Under the pieces are notes generated by a model that was given only the letters and a program-made list of their open reading frames with translations, had not been told where the DNA came from and made no database searches. From Bacteroidota bacterium (GTDB lineage Bacteria > Bacteroidota > Ignavibacteria > UBA10030), in assembly GCA_026416125.1 (NCBI GenBank), contig JAOAFT010000006.1, positions 13,015-77,014 of the forward strand: a stretch of DNA of 64,000 nucleotides, given 5' to 3'. This document shows positions 42,830-50,955 of the stretch, one piece after another; position 1 is the stretch's first letter; each line of letters begins with the position of its first letter. The translations under genes were made by a program, and so were the position numbers.

Positions 42830-45800
42830 ATGTCACACGCAATTGCGGTATTGATAGCAGTACTGTTCATCGCTCTACCAATCTATGCACAGGGAGTGAT
42901 GTACCCTTATCGGCAGAACTTTGATTCCGTCAGCACACCATTTTTCCCAAGTGGATGGGATGCTGTAGGATTCACACTCTCAACATCTTCACCGCGTTCT
43001 TCTCCGAACTGTGTGTACACAGCTGGTAACACAGCTAAGAAGACACTTACCACACCACCCTTTGACTTTGTGAAAAGAAATCCAGAAAAACTTACATTCT
43101 GGGAACGACGCTCAGCAACAGCTCTCACTTATCGACTTGAAGTCCGAGCTGCTATTGAGGATACAAATTTTTCCATACTTCTCGCCCGTTTTGACACTAG
43201 TCCATCAACTACAAGTTACATACTCAGGAGTGTTGATCTTTCTTCCAGTGTACTTGCTAACCGTTCAAACGTTCGATTTCGGTGGGTACTCCTCCAGGAT
43301 AACACCAATTCTACTGGTACACTCCGTATTGATGATGTAAGTATCACCGTACTGCCGACATACGATGTTGGAGTATCAGCGTTTACAATTTCAACTATCA
43401 ATCCAACCCGACGTGACTCATTAATATTCACAGCGACTATTTCAAATTACGCAACAAACTGTGGACGCGTACCTGTTTACTTTGGGCGAGATCTTAACGA
43501 AAACGGTAAAGCCGACCCCAACGAATTTATTACAACTGTTTCTATCGACACTCTTTTTGGAGGCGATTCATCAATTCTACAGTTTATCCATCCTCCATTA
43601 AAGCCAGCAGCCTATTCATTTTTCACTCTCACAGCAGCACTATCCGATGAGAATCGTTCAAATGACACTAGCATGTTATGGTGTACTATTGGATTTTGCA
43701 GAGGTGATGTTATCATTAATGAATTCCTCTATGCGCCAACTGGTGATGAGGACGAATGGATAGAACTCTATAACACGACATCCGATTCTGTGAATCTTCG
43801 GTTGTGGAAAGTTGCTGATAATAGTACTGCAGGGAAAACAACAATTACTACAAGCGATGTCATTTTCCCTCCTCGTTCGTACGCAGTACTATACAAGGAT
43901 CATATGTTCACCACACTTCACCCCGGTGTATTTGGGGTTCGAGTGCCTTTTGCTGCGCTCAACAACACCACGTCTGACGCAATTGTGCTCTATGACTCAC
44001 GGAACGTTGTTATCGATAGTCTTCGGTACGAACCATCATGGGGAGGAAAGAATGGGAAATCACTTGAGCGTATTGAGCCTGAACAACCGAGTACATCGAG
44101 AAGTAATTGGCAAACAAGTGATTCTACCATTGGCACACCAGGATTTGAAAACAGTGTTGCACGGAAAATGATTGATCTTGCAATTACAGCAATCAATGCG
44201 CGTTTTTTATATTCTACACCTCCTCAGTGGTTTATTGAACTTGTCGTTAAAAACATTGGAATTTCGACAGTCAAGGGTTGTACCACTCTTTTTTATCTTG
44301 ATACAAACAATAACGCTATCGCTGAGTGGAACGAGGAATGTGTACATTTATTCAACCAAGAACAAATAGTCAAAGGTGATTCTCTCTGCATACGTACAAC
44401 ACTGAATACCTCAGTATGGGGTGAACAAACACTTTTAGTACACCTAGTCGTACCAAACGACGAACGACTAAAAAACAATTTTACTTCACTACTCCTCAAC
44501 AGTGGCTATCCTCCCTCCTCAGTTGTCATCAACGAACTCCAATATGCCCCACCTGAAGGTCAGTGTGAATGGCTAGAACTCTTCAATCGTTCTCACATTC
44601 CAATTAATCTCAAAGGATGGACCTTTGCAGACCGTCCATCACCATCGGGGAATAGAACCATCGTAAAGATTACCGATTCAAATATTGTACTTCTTCCTCA
44701 ATCCTATTGCGTTATTGCAGCTGATTCAATTATCAAGGAAGCATTCCCATCTCTTTCTTCTAAAGTGCTCCTACTAATTCTACAGCGTTCTTCAGGTTTT
44801 AGTTTTAACAACGATAGCGATGCAGTTGTCTTGTACGATGGCATTGGTAATTGCATCGATAGTATCGTCTATATATCGACATGGTCACGAGTAAAAAACA
44901 GATCTCTCGAACGGTACGATACTGAAATACCTGCTCTCGATGTCTTGCAATGGTCGAGTACAGAATCCACAAGCGGCGGTACACCTGGTTTACCAAATAC
45001 GACTGCACGAAAAACATACGATATTGCTCTTGCACGAGCAACGCCTGAGTATTCACATTCGATGAAACACTGGACCATCGTGACAACAGTAAAAAATCTT
45101 GGGCGAATTACTGTACCATCGTACACTCTCACATTTTCACTCGATGGTAACAGGAACTATCTTCCAGAGCCTCATGAAGAACTTTTAGCGCTCAACATTT
45201 CTGAAATACTTGAACCTCTCGATTCTATGACCATTACAACATTGCTCCCCCAACTTCCTGCGGGCGATCAAAGGATACTTGTTGTTCTTACAGAAGACCA
45301 TGACGAACAACAGCGTAACAATACCATCTCTCTTTCTATTACATGTGGATATCCACCTCAATCAATTGTTATCACAGAACTATGTTTTGATCCACCCCCG
45401 GATCAATGTGAGTGGTTCGAACTCTTGAATCGCACAAGCGAGCCGATTAATCTTTTTAAGTGGTCGTTCGCAGATCGACCAACTGCCTCTGGATATCGGA
45501 ATAAATTTACAATTGGAGATTCAATATTTATTCTTCCACCATACAGTTATTGTGTTATCGCCGCAGACTCTACCATCTTTGAGGTTTTCCCTTCTCTTCA
45601 ACACTCTCAAGTACTCATTTTCAACAGAACAACAGGGTTTGGCTTAAATAACGATACTGATGCACTTACTCTTTACGATAACGCAGGAAATTCTATCGAT
45701 AGTGTTACATACTCAGCAAACTGGTTTCGTGTAAAACAGAAAGCCATCGAACGCATCGATGTAGAACAACCGGCACACGATTCAACAAATTGGAGTACTT

Positions 45801-47032
45801 CAGAATCTCCTCAAAGTGGTACACCAGGAGCACCAAACACTGTTGAACGGAAGAACTTCGACATCTGTATCACATACCCCTCTGCCATTGTACAACAAGA
45901 ACATACTATCTTGAGTCTAACAGTGCGAAACGTTGGTCGAGCACCATCATATAGTTTTACAGTTGTCTGTTTTCGCGATAGTAACACCAATACAAGACCA
46001 GATCCATCTGAAGTACTCCTCACAAGAAACTACACTGAGCTCCTTGCACCAAATGATTCGTTGCGTATTGAACTTTTGCTTTCGTACACATTCTATGGTA
46101 CATCAACACTTATGATCATTGTTTTTGATTCGCTTGACCAACGACCAAACAACAATACTGCCACAGTTAGCCTTACTCGATCGTACCCACACCGTTCACT
46201 CGTTATCAACGAAATTCTTTTCAATCCGTTGAATGGACAGAATGAGTGGTTTGAAGTATATAATCGATCACAACTCCCCATTGATCTCAAACGGTGGTAT
46301 ATTGCAGATGCACCTACACCGAGTGGAATACGATCGGTAGTACGAATTTCAGATTCGTCGTATATCCTTTACCCTGGCGAGTACTGTTGTATTGCATCAG
46401 ATTCGAGTATCTTTTCTTTTACCTTTAAAGCGTCCTCACGTGTTCATATTATTACACGCCCGAGTGGTTTTAACTTAGGAAATGATGGTGATGCTTTAGT
46501 ATTGTTCGATCACACAGGAACCCAAATTGATAGCGTATTCTTCTCAGCACAGTGGCACAATCCACGTGTAGCAGATACAAAAGGACGCTCACTTGAGCGA
46601 TTGAATCCAGAATTCGATTCCAACGACCCTCGTTCATGGGGCACGTGCACTCTTCCGGTGGGTGGTACCCCTGCTCACCAAAACAGCATTGCACTCCCAC
46701 TTCCACAGATTGGGGACGTGGTTACTATCGCCCCCAACCCTTTCTCGCCTGATGGAGATGGATATGAAGACCACTGTGCCATTCGCTACTCTCTCCCGTT
46801 CACAGCAACTTTCGTTACCATACGCATTTTCGATGTACGAGGGAGACTTGTGAAAACGCTAGCTGACCGCGAATATCGATCAGGAAATGATGTTATTATT
46901 TGGAATGGGTATGATGATTACAATCGAAGGGTTCGTGTTGGAATTTATATTGTCTTTTTTGAAGCTCGCGAACCACAAACACAGACTATTTTTCGGAATA
47001 AATATATTCTTATCACTGGAACTAAACTTTAA
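42830..47032 (+). CDS. 1400-aa secreted modular protein: four alternating CARDB-like and Lamin-tail-domain (LTD) modules plus a C-terminal T9SS type-B sorting domain.
   Basis: Signal peptide. LTD signatures occur four times (VIINEFLYAP..DEWIELYN; VVINELQYAP..CEWLELFN; IVITELCFDP..CEWFELLN; LVINEILFNP..NEWFEVYN). C-terminus has NPFSPDGDGYED...IRIFDVRGRLV (CHU_C/type-B-like). Confidence 0.8.
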   Translation: MSHAIAVLIAVLFIALPIYAQGVMYPYRQNFDSVSTPFFPSGWDAVGFTLSTSSPRSSPNCVYTAGNTAKKTLTTPPFDFVKRNPEKLTFWERRSATALTYRLEVRAAIEDTNFSILLARFDTSPSTTSYILRSVDLSSSVLANRSNVRFRWVLLQDNTNSTGTLRIDDVSITVLPTYDVGVSAFTISTINPTRRDSLIFTATISNYATNCGRVPVYFGRDLNENGKADPNEFITTVSIDTLFGGDSSILQFIHPPLKPAAYSFFTLTAALSDENRSNDTSMLWCTIGFCRGDVIINEFLYAPTGDEDEWIELYNTTSDSVNLRLWKVADNSTAGKTTITTSDVIFPPRSYAVLYKDHMFTTLHPGVFGVRVPFAALNNTTSDAIVLYDSRNVVIDSLRYEPSWGGKNGKSLERIEPEQPSTSRSNWQTSDSTIGTPGFENSVARKMIDLAITAINARFLYSTPPQWFIELVVKNIGISTVKGCTTLFYLDTNNNAIAEWNEECVHLFNQEQIVKGDSLCIRTTLNTSVWGEQTLLVHLVVPNDERLKNNFTSLLLNSGYPPSSVVINELQYAPPEGQCEWLELFNRSHIPINLKGWTFADRPSPSGNRTIVKITDSNIVLLPQSYCVIAADSIIKEAFPSLSSKVLLLILQRSSGFSFNNDSDAVVLYDGIGNCIDSIVYISTWSRVKNRSLERYDTEIPALDVLQWSSTESTSGGTPGLPNTTARKTYDIALARATPEYSHSMKHWTIVTTVKNLGRITVPSYTLTFSLDGNRNYLPEPHEELLALNISEILEPLDSMTITTLLPQLPAGDQRILVVLTEDHDEQQRNNTISLSITCGYPPQSIVITELCFDPPPDQCEWFELLNRTSEPINLFKWSFADRPTASGYRNKFTIGDSIFILPPYSYCVIAADSTIFEVFPSLQHSQVLIFNRTTGFGLNNDTDALTLYDNAGNSIDSVTYSANWFRVKQKAIERIDVEQPAHDSTNWSTSESPQSGTPGAPNTVERKNFDICITYPSAIVQQEHTILSLTVRNVGRAPSYSFTVVCFRDSNTNTRPDPSEVLLTRNYTELLAPNDSLRIELLLSYTFYGTSTLMIIVFDSLDQRPNNNTATVSLTRSYPHRSLVINEILFNPLNGQNEWFEVYNRSQLPIDLKRWYIADAPTPSGIRSVVRISDSSYILYPGEYCCIASDSSIFSFTFKASSRVHIITRPSGFNLGNDGDALVLFDHTGTQIDSVFFSAQWHNPRVADTKGRSLERLNPEFDSNDPRSWGTCTLPVGGTPAHQNSIALPLPQIGDVVTIAPNPFSPDGDGYEDHCAIRYSLPFTATFVTIRIFDVRGRLVKTLADREYRSGNDVIIWNGYDDYNRRVRVGIYIVFFEAREPQTQTIFRNKYILITGTKL

Positions 47033-47182: not shown

Positions 47183-48106
47183 ATGATGACACATTTCTAT
47201 ATTATAGTCCATTTCTTTACTTTCGGTGCTGGAGTAATGCTTGTTTCTTTCTCTCTCATTGCTTTTAAAAAAACACAAAAGATATTTTACCTAAATCTTT
47301 TCTACTTTACGATAGTAATAATTATTTTTTCATTCTTAGGCTTTTTATACACGTACAAAACAGGGCTACAGCTTCAGTTCCCTACATTGTATTTTCGCGT
47401 CTATGATATTCTATGGTCTCTTTTCTGGTTTCTCTATTACCGTATTTCCCCTCGTTTTTTCTACCATATACTCGAAAAAACTATACCACGAATTGTTGAG
47501 ATCTGCTTTAATGCCATAAGTTTTGTTGCAATTCCATACTTACTGGTTTACACTTTTAACATTCTAACACTAAAAAACGCTATCGATATCATTGTAGAAA
47601 TCTTACTGTATTTGAGTGCTCTCTTCCACTGTGTTTTAGTCTTTCACTATAAAAACAACGTTAAAAAACCAGAAATGAGGCATTATGTCCAATATGTCTC
47701 TATTTACTTTTTTATATTTATTCCCCTCGCGTGCCTTAATGTTTTCTTAAACTTTACCCTGCTTCCTATTATTGAAAACAACTTAAAAAATTATTTAATC
47801 TCGTTTTCAGTTCTTGCTTGGTTTATATTAAACATTATTTTTCTGTTCCGACAATTTTCTTTAGAAAGTACTCATATAGCTTTTGAAATTCCAAAAGAAG
47901 TACAAGCCAAATATGGTTTAACAGACCGCGAAATTCAAATAATCAAACTACTCGTTGACAGGTATAGTTATAAAGAAATAGCTTACCAACTCTTCATCTC
48001 AGTACCCACCGTTAAGTATCATGCCTCTAATATCTATTTTAAGCTCAATATTAAAACAAGAGCAGAACTTATCGAACTCCTAAAAAAATACAGTTACACT
48101 TCGTAA
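47183..48106 (+). CDS. Polytopic membrane protein with a C-terminal LuxR/GerE-type HTH (membrane-bound one-component regulator).
   Basis: About 6-7 predicted TM helices over ~230 aa, followed by LTDREIQIIKLLVDRYSYKEIAYQLFISVPTVKYHASNIYFKL. Very AT-rich. Confidence 0.75.
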   Translation: MMTHFYIIVHFFTFGAGVMLVSFSLIAFKKTQKIFYLNLFYFTIVIIIFSFLGFLYTYKTGLQLQFPTLYFRVYDILWSLFWFLYYRISPRFFYHILEKTIPRIVEICFNAISFVAIPYLLVYTFNILTLKNAIDIIVEILLYLSALFHCVLVFHYKNNVKKPEMRHYVQYVSIYFFIFIPLACLNVFLNFTLLPIIENNLKNYLISFSVLAWFILNIIFLFRQFSLESTHIAFEIPKEVQAKYGLTDREIQIIKLLVDRYSYKEIAYQLFISVPTVKYHASNIYFKLNIKTRAELIELLKKYSYTS

Positions 48107-48254: not shown

Positions 48255-49835
48255 ATGAAAAGACAAATAATGATAAAAATCATAACCATGTTAATGGTTA
48301 TGATCACGAACAGATGCTTCGCACAAATACCCCAATTGTTGAATTATCAAGGTGTTCTTTGTGACAGCTCAGGATTACCTATAAGCGATGGGACATATAC
48401 GCTAATATTTAAACTTTATGATCATGCAACTAAAAGTGGTGAGCTTTGGTCTGAACAACAAATAGTTACCGTTCGCAAAGGTGTTTTTTCAGTTAATCTT
48501 GGAACTCAATCTCAATTAAATTTGCCTTTTAATAAGCAATATTGGCTTGGTATTACAATAGGTAATGGTAACGAATTAACGCCTCGAATACAATTAACAT
48601 CTTCAGCTTATAGTATGAATTCGATTTCGGTAGCAGATAGTTCAATAACTAGTATTAAGATCAAAGAAGGTGCTATAACATCATCGAAAATAGCAACAAA
48701 TGCAATTACGCAAACAAAACTTGCAGATAGTACCGTTACCACAGAAAAATTAGCAAATTTAAGCGTAACATCATCCAAACTGGCAAACAATTCTGTAACA
48801 ACCGAAAAAATTGCAGATGGAGCCATTACCCAATCTAAGCTTGCTCAAGGTATCTCTATCCCTGTAAGCGGCAATGCTGGTGGCGATCTCACTGGCACAT
48901 ATCCAAATCCAATTATTGGAAACGCTAAAGTAACCAAAGAAAAATTGGCTGATTCGGCCGTAACTACTGCAAAACTCGCCGTCAATTCTGTAACAACCGA
49001 AAAAATTGCAGATGGAGCCATTACCCAATCTAAGCTTGCTCAAGGTATCTCTATCCCTGTAAGCGGCAATGCTGGTGGCGATCTCACTGGCACATATCCT
49101 GACCCTACAATCAAAGACAAAGCAATAGCAAGCAAACACATAAATTGGCCAATCCAATTATCTGATGAGCTCGTATTAGGAAACCCTGGTACTTACTCAC
49201 TCCAAGCAAGTCGATACTCTGGTACTTTACAACTTTGCCCCAATAACACTTCGTATGCTCCTCTTTTTGTGGTCAAAGGCAATTATAGTTACTCTGCTTG
49301 GCTTGGTGGAAATGTACTAATCTCAAACGGAAACTTAACTGTAAATGGGAATCTACTTGTATTTGGTTCAAAGAGTTTTATCATCGACCACCCACTCGAT
49401 CCCGCGAATAAATACCTTGTTCACTTTTGCATTGAATCCAACAAGCCATTGAACGTTTACACTGGTACAGTCGTTACAGATAGAGATGGAAATGCCACTA
49501 TTGACCTACCAGCTTATTTTGAAGCTATAAATCGTGACTTCCATTACCAACTAACTGTCCTTGGTCAATTTGCACAAGCTATTGTAAGTGAAGAGATTCA
49601 CAATAACCGTTTTTCAATAAAAACCGACAAGCCAAATGTTAAAGTGAGTTGGCAAGTAACAAGTGTTCGTAACGATCTTTCCATGCAGGGATCACTTCCT
49701 CAAACTGAAGTTTATAAAAGTGTAAAAGAACGTGGGAAGTACTTCAATCCAAAACTCTATGGTGCACCTCCATCATCAGGTTTATACAACAACGAGTTGC
49801 CACAACATTTAAACGATAGTCATGAATCGAACTAA
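48255..49835 (+). CDS. Secreted tail-fiber-like protein. Domains in order: conserved N-terminal domain, ~10-residue xITxxKLAxx repeats, C-terminal tail-fiber-type domain. The ORF-track start is 48192; the likely start is MKRQIM with a signal peptide.
   Basis: Signal peptide MKRQIMIKIITMLMVMITNRCFAQ. Decapeptide repeats (AITSSKIATN / AITQTKLADS / VTTEKLANLS ...). Perfect 39-aa internal duplication. C-terminal KSFIIDHPLDP...YQLTVLGQFAQAIV resembles Bacteroidetes tail-fibre-domain proteins (from memory). Confidence 0.55.
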   Translation: MKRQIMIKIITMLMVMITNRCFAQIPQLLNYQGVLCDSSGLPISDGTYTLIFKLYDHATKSGELWSEQQIVTVRKGVFSVNLGTQSQLNLPFNKQYWLGITIGNGNELTPRIQLTSSAYSMNSISVADSSITSIKIKEGAITSSKIATNAITQTKLADSTVTTEKLANLSVTSSKLANNSVTTEKIADGAITQSKLAQGISIPVSGNAGGDLTGTYPNPIIGNAKVTKEKLADSAVTTAKLAVNSVTTEKIADGAITQSKLAQGISIPVSGNAGGDLTGTYPDPTIKDKAIASKHINWPIQLSDELVLGNPGTYSLQASRYSGTLQLCPNNTSYAPLFVVKGNYSYSAWLGGNVLISNGNLTVNGNLLVFGSKSFIIDHPLDPANKYLVHFCIESNKPLNVYTGTVVTDRDGNATIDLPAYFEAINRDFHYQLTVLGQFAQAIVSEEIHNNRFSIKTDKPNVKVSWQVTSVRNDLSMQGSLPQTEVYKSVKERGKYFNPKLYGAPPSSGLYNNELPQHLNDSHESN

Positions 49836-49862: not shown

Positions 49863-50396
49863 ATGTGGAAAAATTTATGGAAAAAAGTACAGTACCCTCT
49901 TCTTATCTTCATCGTTTTATCTCCAGAATGGGGATACTCACAATTTATTAAATCATCCACTTTTGGAAGTGGAAGCAATACCTGCTTTTCGAGCACCCAT
50001 AGTGTAAGTGGAATTGTAGGACAAAATATCGTAGGACGTGTTTCAAACACTGTGTATTCTCTCCTCTCTGGCTACTGGTCTCACCGTCATTATTCTACAA
50101 CAGCTCTTGAATACACAACAACTAATTATCCACAACAACTGCAATTATTCAATAATTATCCCAATCCATTTAATGCTTCTACCACTATTTCATTTGTAAT
50201 CCCAAAACCATCCTATGTAACATTGAAAATTTACAATTTATTAGGACAAGAAGTCGCAACTTTAATTGAAAAAGAATTATTACCAGGAATATATTCTCAC
50301 ACTTGGAACACAGTTACAGCATCAAGTGGAATGTATGTTTGCGTGCTAAAAGTAGATCAATGTATTGAAACAAAGAAATTATTACTTGTCAAGTAA
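49863..50396 (+). CDS. Small T9SS type-A C-terminal sorting domain protein (mini-cargo, ~90-aa passenger).
   Basis: Signal peptide. C-terminal NYPNPFNASTTISFVIPKPSYVTLKIYNLLGQEVATLIEKELLPGIYSHTWN...SGMYVCVLKV (Por_Secre_tail-like). Confidence 0.75.
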   Translation: MWKNLWKKVQYPLLIFIVLSPEWGYSQFIKSSTFGSGSNTCFSSTHSVSGIVGQNIVGRVSNTVYSLLSGYWSHRHYSTTALEYTTTNYPQQLQLFNNYPNPFNASTTISFVIPKPSYVTLKIYNLLGQEVATLIEKELLPGIYSHTWNTVTASSGMYVCVLKVDQCIETKKLLLVK

Positions 50397-50855: not shown

Positions 50856-50927
<72 letters not shown>

Positions 50928-50955
50928 TCTACTTTCAAAGGAAATTCTCTATACC

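What the first reader, a model, noticed from the sequence alone, without database searches (positions are those of the whole stretch)
48789..49100. Perfect 116-bp in-frame direct duplication (195-bp period) inside the tail-fibre-like gene
The segment aattctgtaacaaccgaaaaaattgcagatggagccattacccaatctaagcttgctcaaggtatctctatccctgtaagcggcaatgctggtggcgatctcactggcacatatcc occurs twice, at ~48789-48904 and ~48984-49099. Both copies encode NSVTTEKIADGAITQSKLAQGISIPVSGNAGGDLTGTYP. Perfect identity implies a very recent duplication or ongoing gene conversion. It gives a substrate for RecA-mediated expansion or contraction of repeat number, which is a length or antigenic variation mechanism.
Basis: seen in the sequence. 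Interest (0 to 1): 0.5.

Follow-up and report, generated by a model that had tools for sequence, protein, structure and literature searches.

The report
Homogenised repeat in surface-fibre gene
Two neighbouring repeat modules in the stalk of a bacterial cell-surface fibre gene share a 117-base stretch that is letter-for-letter identical, most likely because one copy was recently pasted over the other by recombination; this is a real but fairly ordinary feature of repetitive surface-protein genes.

Summary
A perfect direct repeat of 117 nt (48788-48904 = 48983-49099, period 195 nt = 65 codons) lies in frame in a 526-aa secreted protein (48255-49835).

The gene is chromosomal, not viral. It is a phage-fibre-like cell-surface fibre with three parts: an N-domain distantly related to Bdellovibrio MAT fibres, a stalk of DUF5907 modules, and a conserved C-terminal domain.

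The repeat is not a fresh tandem duplication. The 78-nt spacer is unique, and the homologous 60 nt to the left are only 63% identical. The pattern is a sharply bounded homogenised tract between two older modules, which is the signature of intragenic gene conversion.

Relatives show the same kind of mosaic (perfect runs of 56-155 nt). Near-identical strain variants differ by whole 10-aa repeats or by a 113-aa module block with breakpoints in the repeated cap motif. So stalk length does vary by recombination in this family.

There is no evidence for a programmed or antigenic switch. The source is a single metagenome-assembled contig with no close relatives, so assembly-driven homogenisation or copy-number collapse cannot be excluded.

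Interest is low to moderate. A side observation is a conserved pairing of the fibre gene with a small T9SS-sorted protein.

The parts
48255..49835 (+). Fibre gene, 526 aa. Identical to NCBI MCX7984106.1, 'MAG: hypothetical protein N3A63_04280 [Bacteroidetes bacterium]'.
   Evidence: ORF list. 100% match over the full length to P0001. Pfam DUF5907 E=1.6e-8, above the cutoff. PHROGs tail-fibre families E=1e-23.
48255..48326 (+). Sec-type signal peptide (MKRQIMIKIITMLMVMITNRCFAQ). The protein has no T9SS C-terminal sorting domain.
   Evidence: Read from the translation. AF2 gives a helix at residues 2-22. Pfam/NCBIfam find no Por_Secre_tail domain in this protein. Cleavage is inferred.
48327..48638 (+). 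Conserved N-terminal beta domain (IPxxLNYQGVL...). It is a distant relative of the Bdellovibrio MAT-fibre N-domain.
   Evidence: NCBIfam NF053851 Bdello_MAT_N gives E=3e-7 and 30 bits, below the 60-bit cutoff. The same model hits 44 of 60 relatives, best E=5e-11. pLDDT is above 90 for residues 24-110.
48639..48728 (+). Three extra 10-aa stalk repeats ([IV]Txx K[IL]Axx type), residues 129-158, ahead of module 1.
   Evidence: Register listing. Similar repeats occur in phage tail-fibre PHROGs.
48729..48923 (+). DUF5907 stalk module 1 (65 aa, residues 159-223): four 10-aa repeats plus the cap GISIPVSGNAGGDLTGTYPNPIIGN.
   Evidence: Relatives have module periods of 45, 55 or 65 aa.
48924..49118 (+). 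DUF5907 stalk module 2 (65 aa, residues 224-288): four 10-aa repeats plus the cap GISIPVSGNAGGDLTGTYPDPTIKD.
   Evidence: The best Pfam DUF5907 stretch covers residues 210-251.
48788..48904 (+). Perfect tract, copy A (117 nt): the last two 10-aa repeats and the cap of module 1, up to ...TYP.
48905..48982 (+). Unique 78-nt spacer (NPIIGNAKVTKEKLADSAVTTAKLAV). It comprises the end of cap 1 and the first two repeats of module 2. It is only about 63% identical to the equivalent part of module 1.
   Evidence: 15 of 20 codons differ in the homologous left flank (6 synonymous, 9 non-synonymous).
48983..49099 (+). Perfect tract, copy B (117 nt), in module 2.
49347..49784 (+). Conserved C-terminal beta-sandwich domain (FIIDHPLDPANKYL...SWQVT.VR.D). 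It is shared by most relatives and by a phage tail protein family.
   Evidence: Invariant and near-invariant columns at residues 375-503. pLDDT is above 90 for about residues 380-510. phrog_6616 'tail protein' matches residues 350-476 with E=8e-8.
49863..50396 (+). Associated downstream gene: a 177-aa protein with a ~70-aa N-domain and a T9SS type-A C-terminal sorting domain. It is the conserved neighbour of the fibre gene.
   Evidence: TIGR04183 E=3e-11. Homologous small proteins lie directly downstream of fibre homologues in at least 12 independent loci.

Best explanation
The 117-nt perfect repeat is a gene-conversion tract. The gene encodes a secreted, probably trimeric, cell-surface fibre whose stalk is built from DUF5907 modules. 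Each module is a run of 10-aa repeats closed by a 'GGDLTGTYPxP' cap. Two such 65-aa modules already existed side by side as diverged paralogues.

This erased all differences, synonymous ones included, while the flanks stayed diverged.

The tract is therefore mainly a footprint of the recombination that keeps this gene family's modules similar. As a by-product, two 117-nt identical, in-frame repeats 195 nt apart are a good substrate for unequal recombination or slippage. That would remove or add one whole 65-aa module and so shorten or lengthen the stalk without breaking the frame.

Shown: the tract, its sharp borders, the modular architecture, and module gain/loss between close relatives of other family members. 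Inferred: the conversion mechanism, its direction, the trimeric state, surface display, and any present-day variation in this organism.
For: 1. The boundaries are sharp. Identity is 117/117, against 63% nt identity (15 of 20 codons differ, 6 of them synonymously) in the homologous 60 nt immediately to the left, and there is no similarity to the right. None of 200,000 shuffles reproduces the run.

2. A tandem duplication with period 195 would make all 195 nt identical, yet the 78-nt spacer is unique.

3. Selection on the peptide cannot explain identical codons; P is about 10^-17.5. In a relative with a 55-aa amino-acid-identical repeat, the DNA copies are only 94% identical.

4. Independent assemblies of homologues show the same mosaic. 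Perfect runs of 155 nt (L003), 87 nt (L001), 83 nt (L004) and 56 nt (L002) are embedded in 91-96% repeats that drop abruptly to background. About 15 of 120 homologues carry exact internal repeats of 30 aa or more.

5. Module numbers range from 0 to 11, and periods are quantised at 45, 55 or 65 aa.

6. Close variants differ by whole units. There is a 10-aa indel in P0017 versus P0041/P0044. P0004 versus P0006 shows a 10-aa indel and a 113-aa block indel whose ends lie in the repeated cap motif.

7. RuvB is encoded in the same window, so at least part of the homologous-recombination machinery is present.
Against: The sequence comes from one metagenome-assembled contig, and no second assembly or close relative was found. 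Neither the perfect identity nor the copy number is independently verified.

Neither the donor nor the direction of conversion can be identified. A donor outside the window, such as another fibre paralogue, cannot be excluded.

The diverged flanks offer little homology to initiate RecA-dependent exchange, so the initiating homology must have lain inside the tract itself and is now invisible.

The amino-acid-level test for concerted evolution across the family was inconclusive, because the module consensus is strongly conserved between proteins.
Confidence: 0.6

Rival explanations
1. Assembly artefact. The two modules are similar but not identical in the real genome, or differ among co-occurring strains, and a short-read de Bruijn assembler merged the variants into one consensus used twice. 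Alternatively, the X-spacer-X loop was traversed the minimum number of times, so the true gene holds more modules (collapsed copy number). A third form is a chimeric join of two strains' alleles.
For: The source is a MAG with a single contig and a single cluster member. Repeats longer than typical k-mers form loops that assemblers resolve heuristically (general knowledge). No independent assembly of this gene exists in the collections.
Against: - The repeat is internal to a 113.8-kb contig, keeps the reading frame, and gives a module length (65 aa) typical of relatives.
- 117 nt does not correspond to a default k-mer size (own knowledge of MEGAHIT and SPAdes defaults).
- Homologues assembled by other pipelines show comparable perfect runs up to 155 nt while retaining nearby mismatches, so assemblers do not systematically erase differences.
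- One homologue with such repeats (P0067) was recovered identically on 5 contigs, including two from different sources, a JGI and an ENA sample.
Confidence: 0.17
2. A recent partial duplication rather than conversion. A 117-nt or larger segment was newly inserted by template switching or by unequal exchange with another fibre allele or paralogue, creating module 2 de novo. The spacer would then derive from the foreign partner.
For: Some genomes carry tandem arrays of 3-4 fibre paralogues that could act as partners. Relatives with near-identical N- and C-domains but different stalks (P0021/P0035/P0039) show that stalk segments are exchanged.
Against: No paralogue is present in the 64-kb window. 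The spacer and the left flank are homologous in register (63% identity with the same 10-aa repeat phase), as expected for two old resident modules. Multi-module stalks are the norm in relatives.
Confidence: 0.12
3. A dedicated, high-frequency phase, antigenic or length-variation system, in which the perfect repeat is maintained by selection as a programmed switch. A diversity-generating-retroelement-like template/variable repeat pair would be one form.
For: Identical in-frame repeats in a surface protein could support reversible module gain or loss. Surface fibres are plausible targets of phage or predator pressure (inference). The Periscope-protein concept proposes selection for DNA identity (PMC8201768).
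Against: - There are only two partial copies, not a long array.
- No site-specific recombinase, reverse transcriptase, silent cassettes or invertible elements occur among the ORFs of the window scanned against Pfam.
- The two copies have no adenine-specific differences (none at all), and both lie inside the same ORF, unlike DGR TR/VR pairs.
- No population data are available.
Confidence: 0.05

Closest known systems
Periscope proteins: variable-length bacterial surface stalks such as SasG, Rib, Sgo_0707 and CdrA (Whelan et al. 2021, PMC8201768)
   Same: A surface-protein stalk is built of repeated modules with very high DNA identity. That identity is proposed to allow intragenic recombination and thus repeat gain or loss and variable projection of a distal domain. 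Relatives of this gene show module-number differences between near-identical variants.
   Different: Here there are only two modules and only 60% of the module is identical. The modules are short fibre repeats (DUF5907), not independently folding globular domains. The stalk is probably trimeric. The organism is an environmental FCB-group bacterium. Copy-number variation has not been shown for this gene.
Bdellovibrio bacteriovorus MAT (mosaic adhesive trimer) fibres (Caulton et al. 2024, PMC10769870)
   Same: Both are cell-encoded, phage-fibre-like secreted proteins with a conserved N-terminal domain, a repetitive stalk and exchangeable C-terminal tips. The N-domain here gives sub-threshold hits to the NCBIfam Bdello_MAT_N model in 44 of 60 relatives. 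A few relatives carry an S74 tip instead of the usual C-domain (P0026 and P0099; P0026 confirmed).
   Different: The hits fall below the curated cutoff. The host is not a known predator. Most members share one C-terminal domain rather than diverse tips. The gene is paired with a small T9SS-sorted protein, which has no described counterpart in Bdellovibrio. Trimer formation and surface display are untested.
Trimeric autotransporter adhesins with recombining stalk repeats, e.g. Bartonella BadA (Thibau et al. 2022, PMC8859334)
   Same: Both are long repetitive fibre stalks in which recombination among near-identical repeat arrays reshuffles modules and changes fibre length between isolates (abstract).
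   Different: There is no YadA-type C-terminal membrane anchor or head/neck motifs. The repeat family and the secretion route are different.
Phage tail fibres and minor tail proteins carrying the same 10-aa repeats and C-terminal domain
   Same: PHROGs tail-fibre families match the stalk repeats (E=1e-23) and the C-domain (phrog_6616, E=8e-8). Foldseek hits to phage minor tail and tail-fibre models reach E=3e-9.
   Different: The gene lies in a housekeeping chromosomal neighbourhood without any virion, integrase or lysis genes. It has a Sec signal peptide.

Membership tests
DUF5907 repeat proteins (Pfam PF19264) | Match to the PF19264 profile above the gathering score | tested here: met
   35.0 bits against a cutoff of 27, E=1.6e-8, residues 210-251. 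Most top homologues carry precomputed PF19264.
Bdellovibrio MAT fibre superfamily | Conserved MAT N-terminal domain (NCBIfam NF053851 Bdello_MAT_N) | tested here: inconclusive
   E=3e-7 but 30.4 bits against a curated cutoff of 60. 44 of 60 relatives hit with E<=1e-3, best 5e-11. This indicates distant homology, not membership by the curated threshold.
Bdellovibrio MAT fibre superfamily | Intertwined homotrimeric beta-prism stalk | not testable with these tools
   Only monomer prediction is available. The stalk has pLDDT 45-70. No PDB sequence relatives were found.
Bdellovibrio MAT fibre superfamily | Mosaic, exchangeable C-terminal tip domains (S74 and non-S74) | tested here: inconclusive
   Most relatives share one 'IDHPLDP' C-domain. 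P0026 and P0099 carry Peptidase_S74 instead (P0026 and P0099; P0026 confirmed). Several lack the C-domain.
Periscope proteins | Adjacent stalk repeats with very high DNA identity | tested here: met
   117 of 195 nt per module are 100% identical. However, there are only two modules and identity is partial.
Periscope proteins | Repeat-number variation between strains of the same gene | not testable with these tools
   No relative above about 61% identity was found in protein, genome or metagenome collections. The feature is met for other members of the family.
Periscope proteins | Cell-surface anchoring with a distal functional domain | not tested
   Only a signal peptide is evident. The conserved T9SS-sorted neighbour suggests a surface location, but this is an inference.
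Phage tail fibre (as part of a phage or prophage) | Located among virion, integration or lysis genes | tested here: not met
   Neighbours are PdxJ, ClpB-type ATPase, CarA, TRAP transporter, RuvB, Dxr, Lpt and DAHP synthase genes. There are no phage families.
Diversity-generating retroelement TR/VR pair | Nearby reverse transcriptase, and TR/VR differences confined to adenines | tested here: not met
   No RT is present among the window ORFs scanned. The copies are identical and both lie inside the one ORF.
Trimeric autotransporter adhesin | C-terminal YadA-like beta-barrel anchor | tested here: not met
   There is no YadA anchor, head or stalk Pfam hit in the protein. A JGI label 'trimeric autotransporter adhesin' on two relatives is source annotation only.

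The most novel reading that the evidence does not exclude
The gene belongs to a widespread, uncharacterised surface-fibre system of FCB-group bacteria (Ignavibacteriota, Kapabacteria, Bacteroidota). The system is a MAT-like, phage-fibre-derived trimer that lacks its own T9SS signal. It is displayed through a dedicated small T9SS-sorted partner encoded immediately downstream. Its reach is tuned in 10-aa and 45/55/65-aa quanta by ongoing recombination between near-identical DUF5907 modules. The 117-nt perfect tract would then be a snapshot of an active, selectively maintained length-variation process, rather than an incidental conversion.
Probability: 0.3. Interest if true: 0.5.

Novelty: new member of a known kind. 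Interest (0 to 1): 0.25.

Why it matters
The tract by itself is a textbook footprint of intragenic recombination in a repetitive surface-protein gene. Its main practical value is as a flag that this gene's module number in the MAG should not be trusted without long reads.

The wider context is more interesting. Thousands of environmental FCB-group bacteria encode phage-fibre-like, MAT-related proteins with quantised, recombining stalks. At least 12 independent loci also carry a conserved small T9SS-sorted neighbour.

If these are displayed fibres of tunable length, they would extend the 'Periscope protein' idea and the Bdellovibrio MAT family to non-predatory, uncultured lineages. They would also suggest a new way of mounting a fibre on a T9SS-decorated surface.

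Tried and rejected
- **Exact-sequence contig look-up** for the protein found nothing.
- **Scans for close relatives** in GTDB genomes and JGI metagenomes gave at most 61% identity in the best segment. A strain-level copy-number comparison for this gene was therefore impossible.
- **PDB sequence searches** with the protein and with a 60-sequence profile gave nothing useful. The only hit was 9EG4 orf16 (E=0.086). It belongs to the Legionella phage LME-1 capsid deposition, whose modelled proteins are the major capsid and head-decoration proteins. It is marginal.
- **Foldseek against the PDB** gave no hit below 1e-3. The afdb50 library was unavailable.
- **Tandem Repeats Finder** does not report the 195-nt period, because only 1.6 partially diverged copies exist.
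- **An amino-acid-level nearest-neighbour test for concerted evolution** of modules was confounded, both by strong conservation of the module consensus and by close homologues in the set. It was dropped in favour of nucleotide-level comparisons.
- **Rfam** found no RNA family in or near the repeat, only a tRNA 1.7 kb downstream.
- **The antisense ORF** 48771-49157 translates to a Cys-rich repeat and is judged spurious.
- **The DGR, prophage and autotransporter readings** were rejected (see the membership tests).
- **A literature search for 'DUF5907'** returned no papers.
Full report
**1. Observation**

The maximal perfect match is 117 nt (48788-48904 and 48983-49099), one base longer on the left than reported. 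The spacing is 195 nt. The repeat finder extends the pair to 170 nt at 89% identity.

Both copies are in frame in the + strand ORF whose annotated start is the ATG at 48255 and whose stop ends at 49835. They encode NSVTTEKIADGAITQSKLAQGISIPVSGNAGGDLTGTYP, at residues 179-217 and 244-282. The window holds no third copy and no paralogue of the gene.

Chance is excluded on two counts:
- Shuffling the match/mismatch string of the aligned modules never gave a run of 117 or more in 200,000 trials; the maximum was 89.
- Given an identical peptide, identical codon choice at all 39 codons has a probability of about 10^-17.5 under the window's codon usage.

**2. What the gene is**

The 526-aa product is 100% identical to NCBI MCX7984106.1, 'MAG: hypothetical protein N3A63_04280 [Bacteroidetes bacterium]'. 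It is known from one contig of 113,831 bp.

The protein has four parts:
- **Signal peptide.** It has a Sec-type signal peptide.
- **N-terminal beta domain.** This is confidently predicted (pLDDT above 90, residues 24-110).
- **Stalk.** This is poorly predicted, as expected for a monomer model of an oligomeric fibre.
- **C-terminal beta-sandwich.** This is confidently predicted (about residues 380-510).

Pfam recognises DUF5907 above threshold. NCBIfam gives a sub-threshold hit of the N-domain to Bdello_MAT_N, the N-domain of the Bdellovibrio 'mosaic adhesive trimer' fibres: E=3e-7, 30 bits against a cutoff of 60. The same model hits 44 of 60 aligned relatives, with a best E-value of 5e-11.

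PHROGs tail-fibre families match the stalk repeats (E=1e-23). A phage 'tail protein' family matches the C-domain (E=8e-8). Foldseek against viral models finds phage minor tail and tail-fibre proteins (best 3e-9). The PDB gives nothing significant.

The label 'tail-fibre-like' is therefore fair as a resemblance, but the gene is cellular. The scanned ORFs of the window are housekeeping or ordinary chromosomal genes. They include RseP-type protease, Dxr, RuvB, DAHP synthases, LptC/OstA, KdsD-like, ClpB-type ATPase, CarA, PdxJ, a TRAP transporter and glycosyltransferases. No integrase, reverse transcriptase or virion genes were found.

**3. Anatomy of the repeat region**

The stalk is hierarchical. 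It starts with seven 10-aa repeats of the type [IV]T-x-x-K-[IL]-A-x-x-x (residues 129-198). A 25-aa cap, GISIPVSGNAGGDLTGTYPNPIIGN, closes them. Four more 10-aa repeats and a second cap follow (residues 224-288). Two 65-aa DUF5907 modules can thus be defined: 48729-48923 and 48924-49118.

The perfect tract covers only the last two 10-aa repeats and the cap up to ...TYP of each module. The first two repeats of the modules are homologous and in register, but only 63% identical. There, 15 of 20 codons differ, 6 synonymously and 9 non-synonymously. To the right of the tract the sequences are unrelated at the DNA level.

**4. Duplication or conversion**

A recent tandem duplication or unequal crossover with a 195-nt period would make the entire 195-nt unit identical in both copies. 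Instead, 117 nt are perfect, the intervening 78 nt are unique, and the divergence steps from 0% to about 37% within a few bases.

That is the signature of a short non-reciprocal exchange (gene conversion or template switching) between two pre-existing, diverged modules. Selection for the peptide cannot produce it. In a homologue whose two modules are amino-acid-identical over 55 residues (P0017), the DNA copies are 94% identical, with the differences at synonymous sites.

**5. Evidence from relatives**

The family is large: 3,885 hits with E<=1e-3 among the 8,000 candidates scored. It is mostly from Ignavibacteria, Kapabacteria and Bacteroidota MAGs. The nearest relatives are only 43-50% identical.

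- **Architecture.** It is conserved as N-domain, 0-11 DUF5907 caps, and usually the 'IDHPLDP' C-domain. Module periods are quantised at 45, 55 or 65 aa, that is 25 + n x 10.
- **Exact internal repeats.** About 15 of the 120 best hits have exact internal repeats of 30 aa or more.
- **DNA mosaics.** Four homologues from independent assemblies show the same mosaic. Perfect runs of 155 nt (L003), 87 nt (L001), 83 nt (L004) and 56 nt (L002) sit within 91-96% identical repeats that fall abruptly to background. One of them, P0067, was recovered identically on five contigs, including two from different sources, a JGI and an ENA sample.
- **Unit gain and loss.** P0017 differs from P0041/P0044 by exactly one 10-aa repeat. 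P0004 and P0006 differ by one 10-aa repeat and by a 113-aa block whose two ends lie in the repeated 'TGPAGGDL.GTYPNP' cap.
- **Stalk exchange.** P0021, P0035 and P0039 share nearly identical N- and C-domains but have different stalks.

Recombination-driven change of stalk length and composition is therefore a real evolutionary property of the family.

**6. How it most likely works**

- **Shown.** There is a homogenised tract between two stalk modules. The geometry is in frame (195 = 3 x 65). Module gain and loss occur in relatives.
- **Inferred.** The tract arose by intragenic gene conversion. It now provides 117 nt of perfect homology 78 nt apart, which by general knowledge of direct-repeat recombination in bacteria is ample for RecA-dependent or slippage-type deletion or expansion of one 65-aa module. 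This would change the length of a (probably trimeric) surface fibre and hence the reach of its C-terminal domain.

This corresponds to the 'Periscope protein' idea, in which high DNA identity between stalk repeats enables intragenic recombination and variable projection of a distal domain (PMC8201768). It also resembles the recombining stalk arrays of the trimeric adhesin BadA (PMC8859334).

Nothing indicates a programmed switch. There are only two partial copies, no recombinase, RT or silent cassettes in the window, and no population data.

**7. Caveats**

The window derives from a short-read-era MAG represented by one contig. No second assembly or close relative exists in the protein, genome or metagenome collections. 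De Bruijn assemblers can merge near-identical repeat copies or traverse an X-spacer-X loop the minimum number of times. So both the 'perfect' identity and the module number (two) need read-level confirmation.

Several points argue against a pure artefact:
- The frame is intact.
- The module length is typical of the family.
- The repeat is internal to a long contig.
- Comparable tracts occur in homologues assembled elsewhere.

**8. Comparison with known systems and novelty**

The closest concepts are as follows:
- Periscope proteins and BadA-type stalk recombination are closest in mechanism.
- Bdellovibrio MAT fibres (PMC10769870) are closest in architecture and distant N-domain homology.
- Phage tail fibres are closest in the origin of the repeats and the C-domain.

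Membership in MAT is not established, because the hits are sub-threshold and the trimer is untested. Membership in phage fibres, DGR targets and autotransporters is rejected on tested features. The finding is a new member of a known kind of phenomenon.

**9. Side observation**

The fibre gene is followed after 27 nt by a 177-aa protein (49863-50396). This protein has a ~70-aa N-domain and a T9SS type-A sorting domain. Homologues of that small protein's N-domain lie 90-600 nt downstream of fibre homologues in at least 12 independent loci, twice in one tandem array. Large T9SS cargo proteins often lie upstream.

The fibre itself has no T9SS signal, so the small protein may be its surface anchor or partner. 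This is an untested idea, and it is probably the most interesting lead from this locus.

**10. Verdict**

The best explanation is an intragenic gene-conversion tract in a modular, cell-encoded fibre gene (confidence about 0.6). An assembly artefact is the main rival (about 0.17). Interest is 0.25.

Noticed in passing
window 49863-50396 (+); also L002 8628-9167, L004 8619-9137, L007 8005-8553, L009 ~10069, L019 ~8472 and ~11283, L020 ~7386, L023 ~9742, L024-L027: A conserved gene pair. A ~172-182-aa protein lies directly downstream of the fibre gene. It has a ~70-aa N-domain (SQY.I..SVFGSG...GQ..VG..SNT...GFWY) and a T9SS C-terminal sorting domain. The pairing holds in the window and in at least 12 independent homologous loci. 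The fibre itself has only a Sec signal peptide, so the small protein may be its surface anchor or partner.
   Followed up: partly
window 42830-47032 (+): A 1400-aa secreted protein with four Lamin-tail domains, a CARDB domain and a CHU_C/T9SS sorting domain lies upstream of the fibre locus. Large Por_Secre_tail cargo genes also lie upstream of fibre homologues in L001, L002 and L007.
   Followed up: partly
window 47183-48106 (+): A 307-aa protein with a C-terminal LuxR/GerE helix-turn-helix domain and an unassigned N-terminal 240 aa (no receiver domain detected) ends about 150 nt upstream of the fibre gene. It is a possible local regulator. In L004 and L006 the upstream gene is instead a hybrid Y_Y_Y/HisKA/AraC regulator.
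   Followed up: no
L011, L019, L020, L021/L032 (whole loci): Some Ignavibacteria genomes carry tandem arrays of 3-4 fibre paralogues. Their N- and C-domain DNA is 75-88% identical, so they are potential donors for inter-paralogue conversion. The window has a single copy.
   Followed up: partly
P0021 / P0035 / P0039 (proteins): Three proteins share almost identical N-domains and C-domains, including a C-terminal 'AEQERMKAEQERMQ' repeat tail whose length also varies. Their central stalks differ, which is a mosaic consistent with cassette-like stalk exchange.
   Followed up: partly
window 50857-50929 (+): A tRNA-Gly (CCC) gene lies about 460 nt downstream of the small T9SS-sorted gene. No integrase or att-like repeat was noticed next to it.
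   Followed up: no
window 48278-48305: A 12-bp-stem palindrome (ATCATAACCATGTTAATGGTTATGAT) lies inside the signal-peptide coding region of the fibre gene. The terminator scan flagged it on the minus strand. It is probably incidental.
   Followed up: no
window 48771-49157 (-): A 128-aa antisense ORF spans both repeat copies. Its translation is a Cys-rich internally repeated string and is judged a spurious by-product of the repeat.
   Followed up: yes
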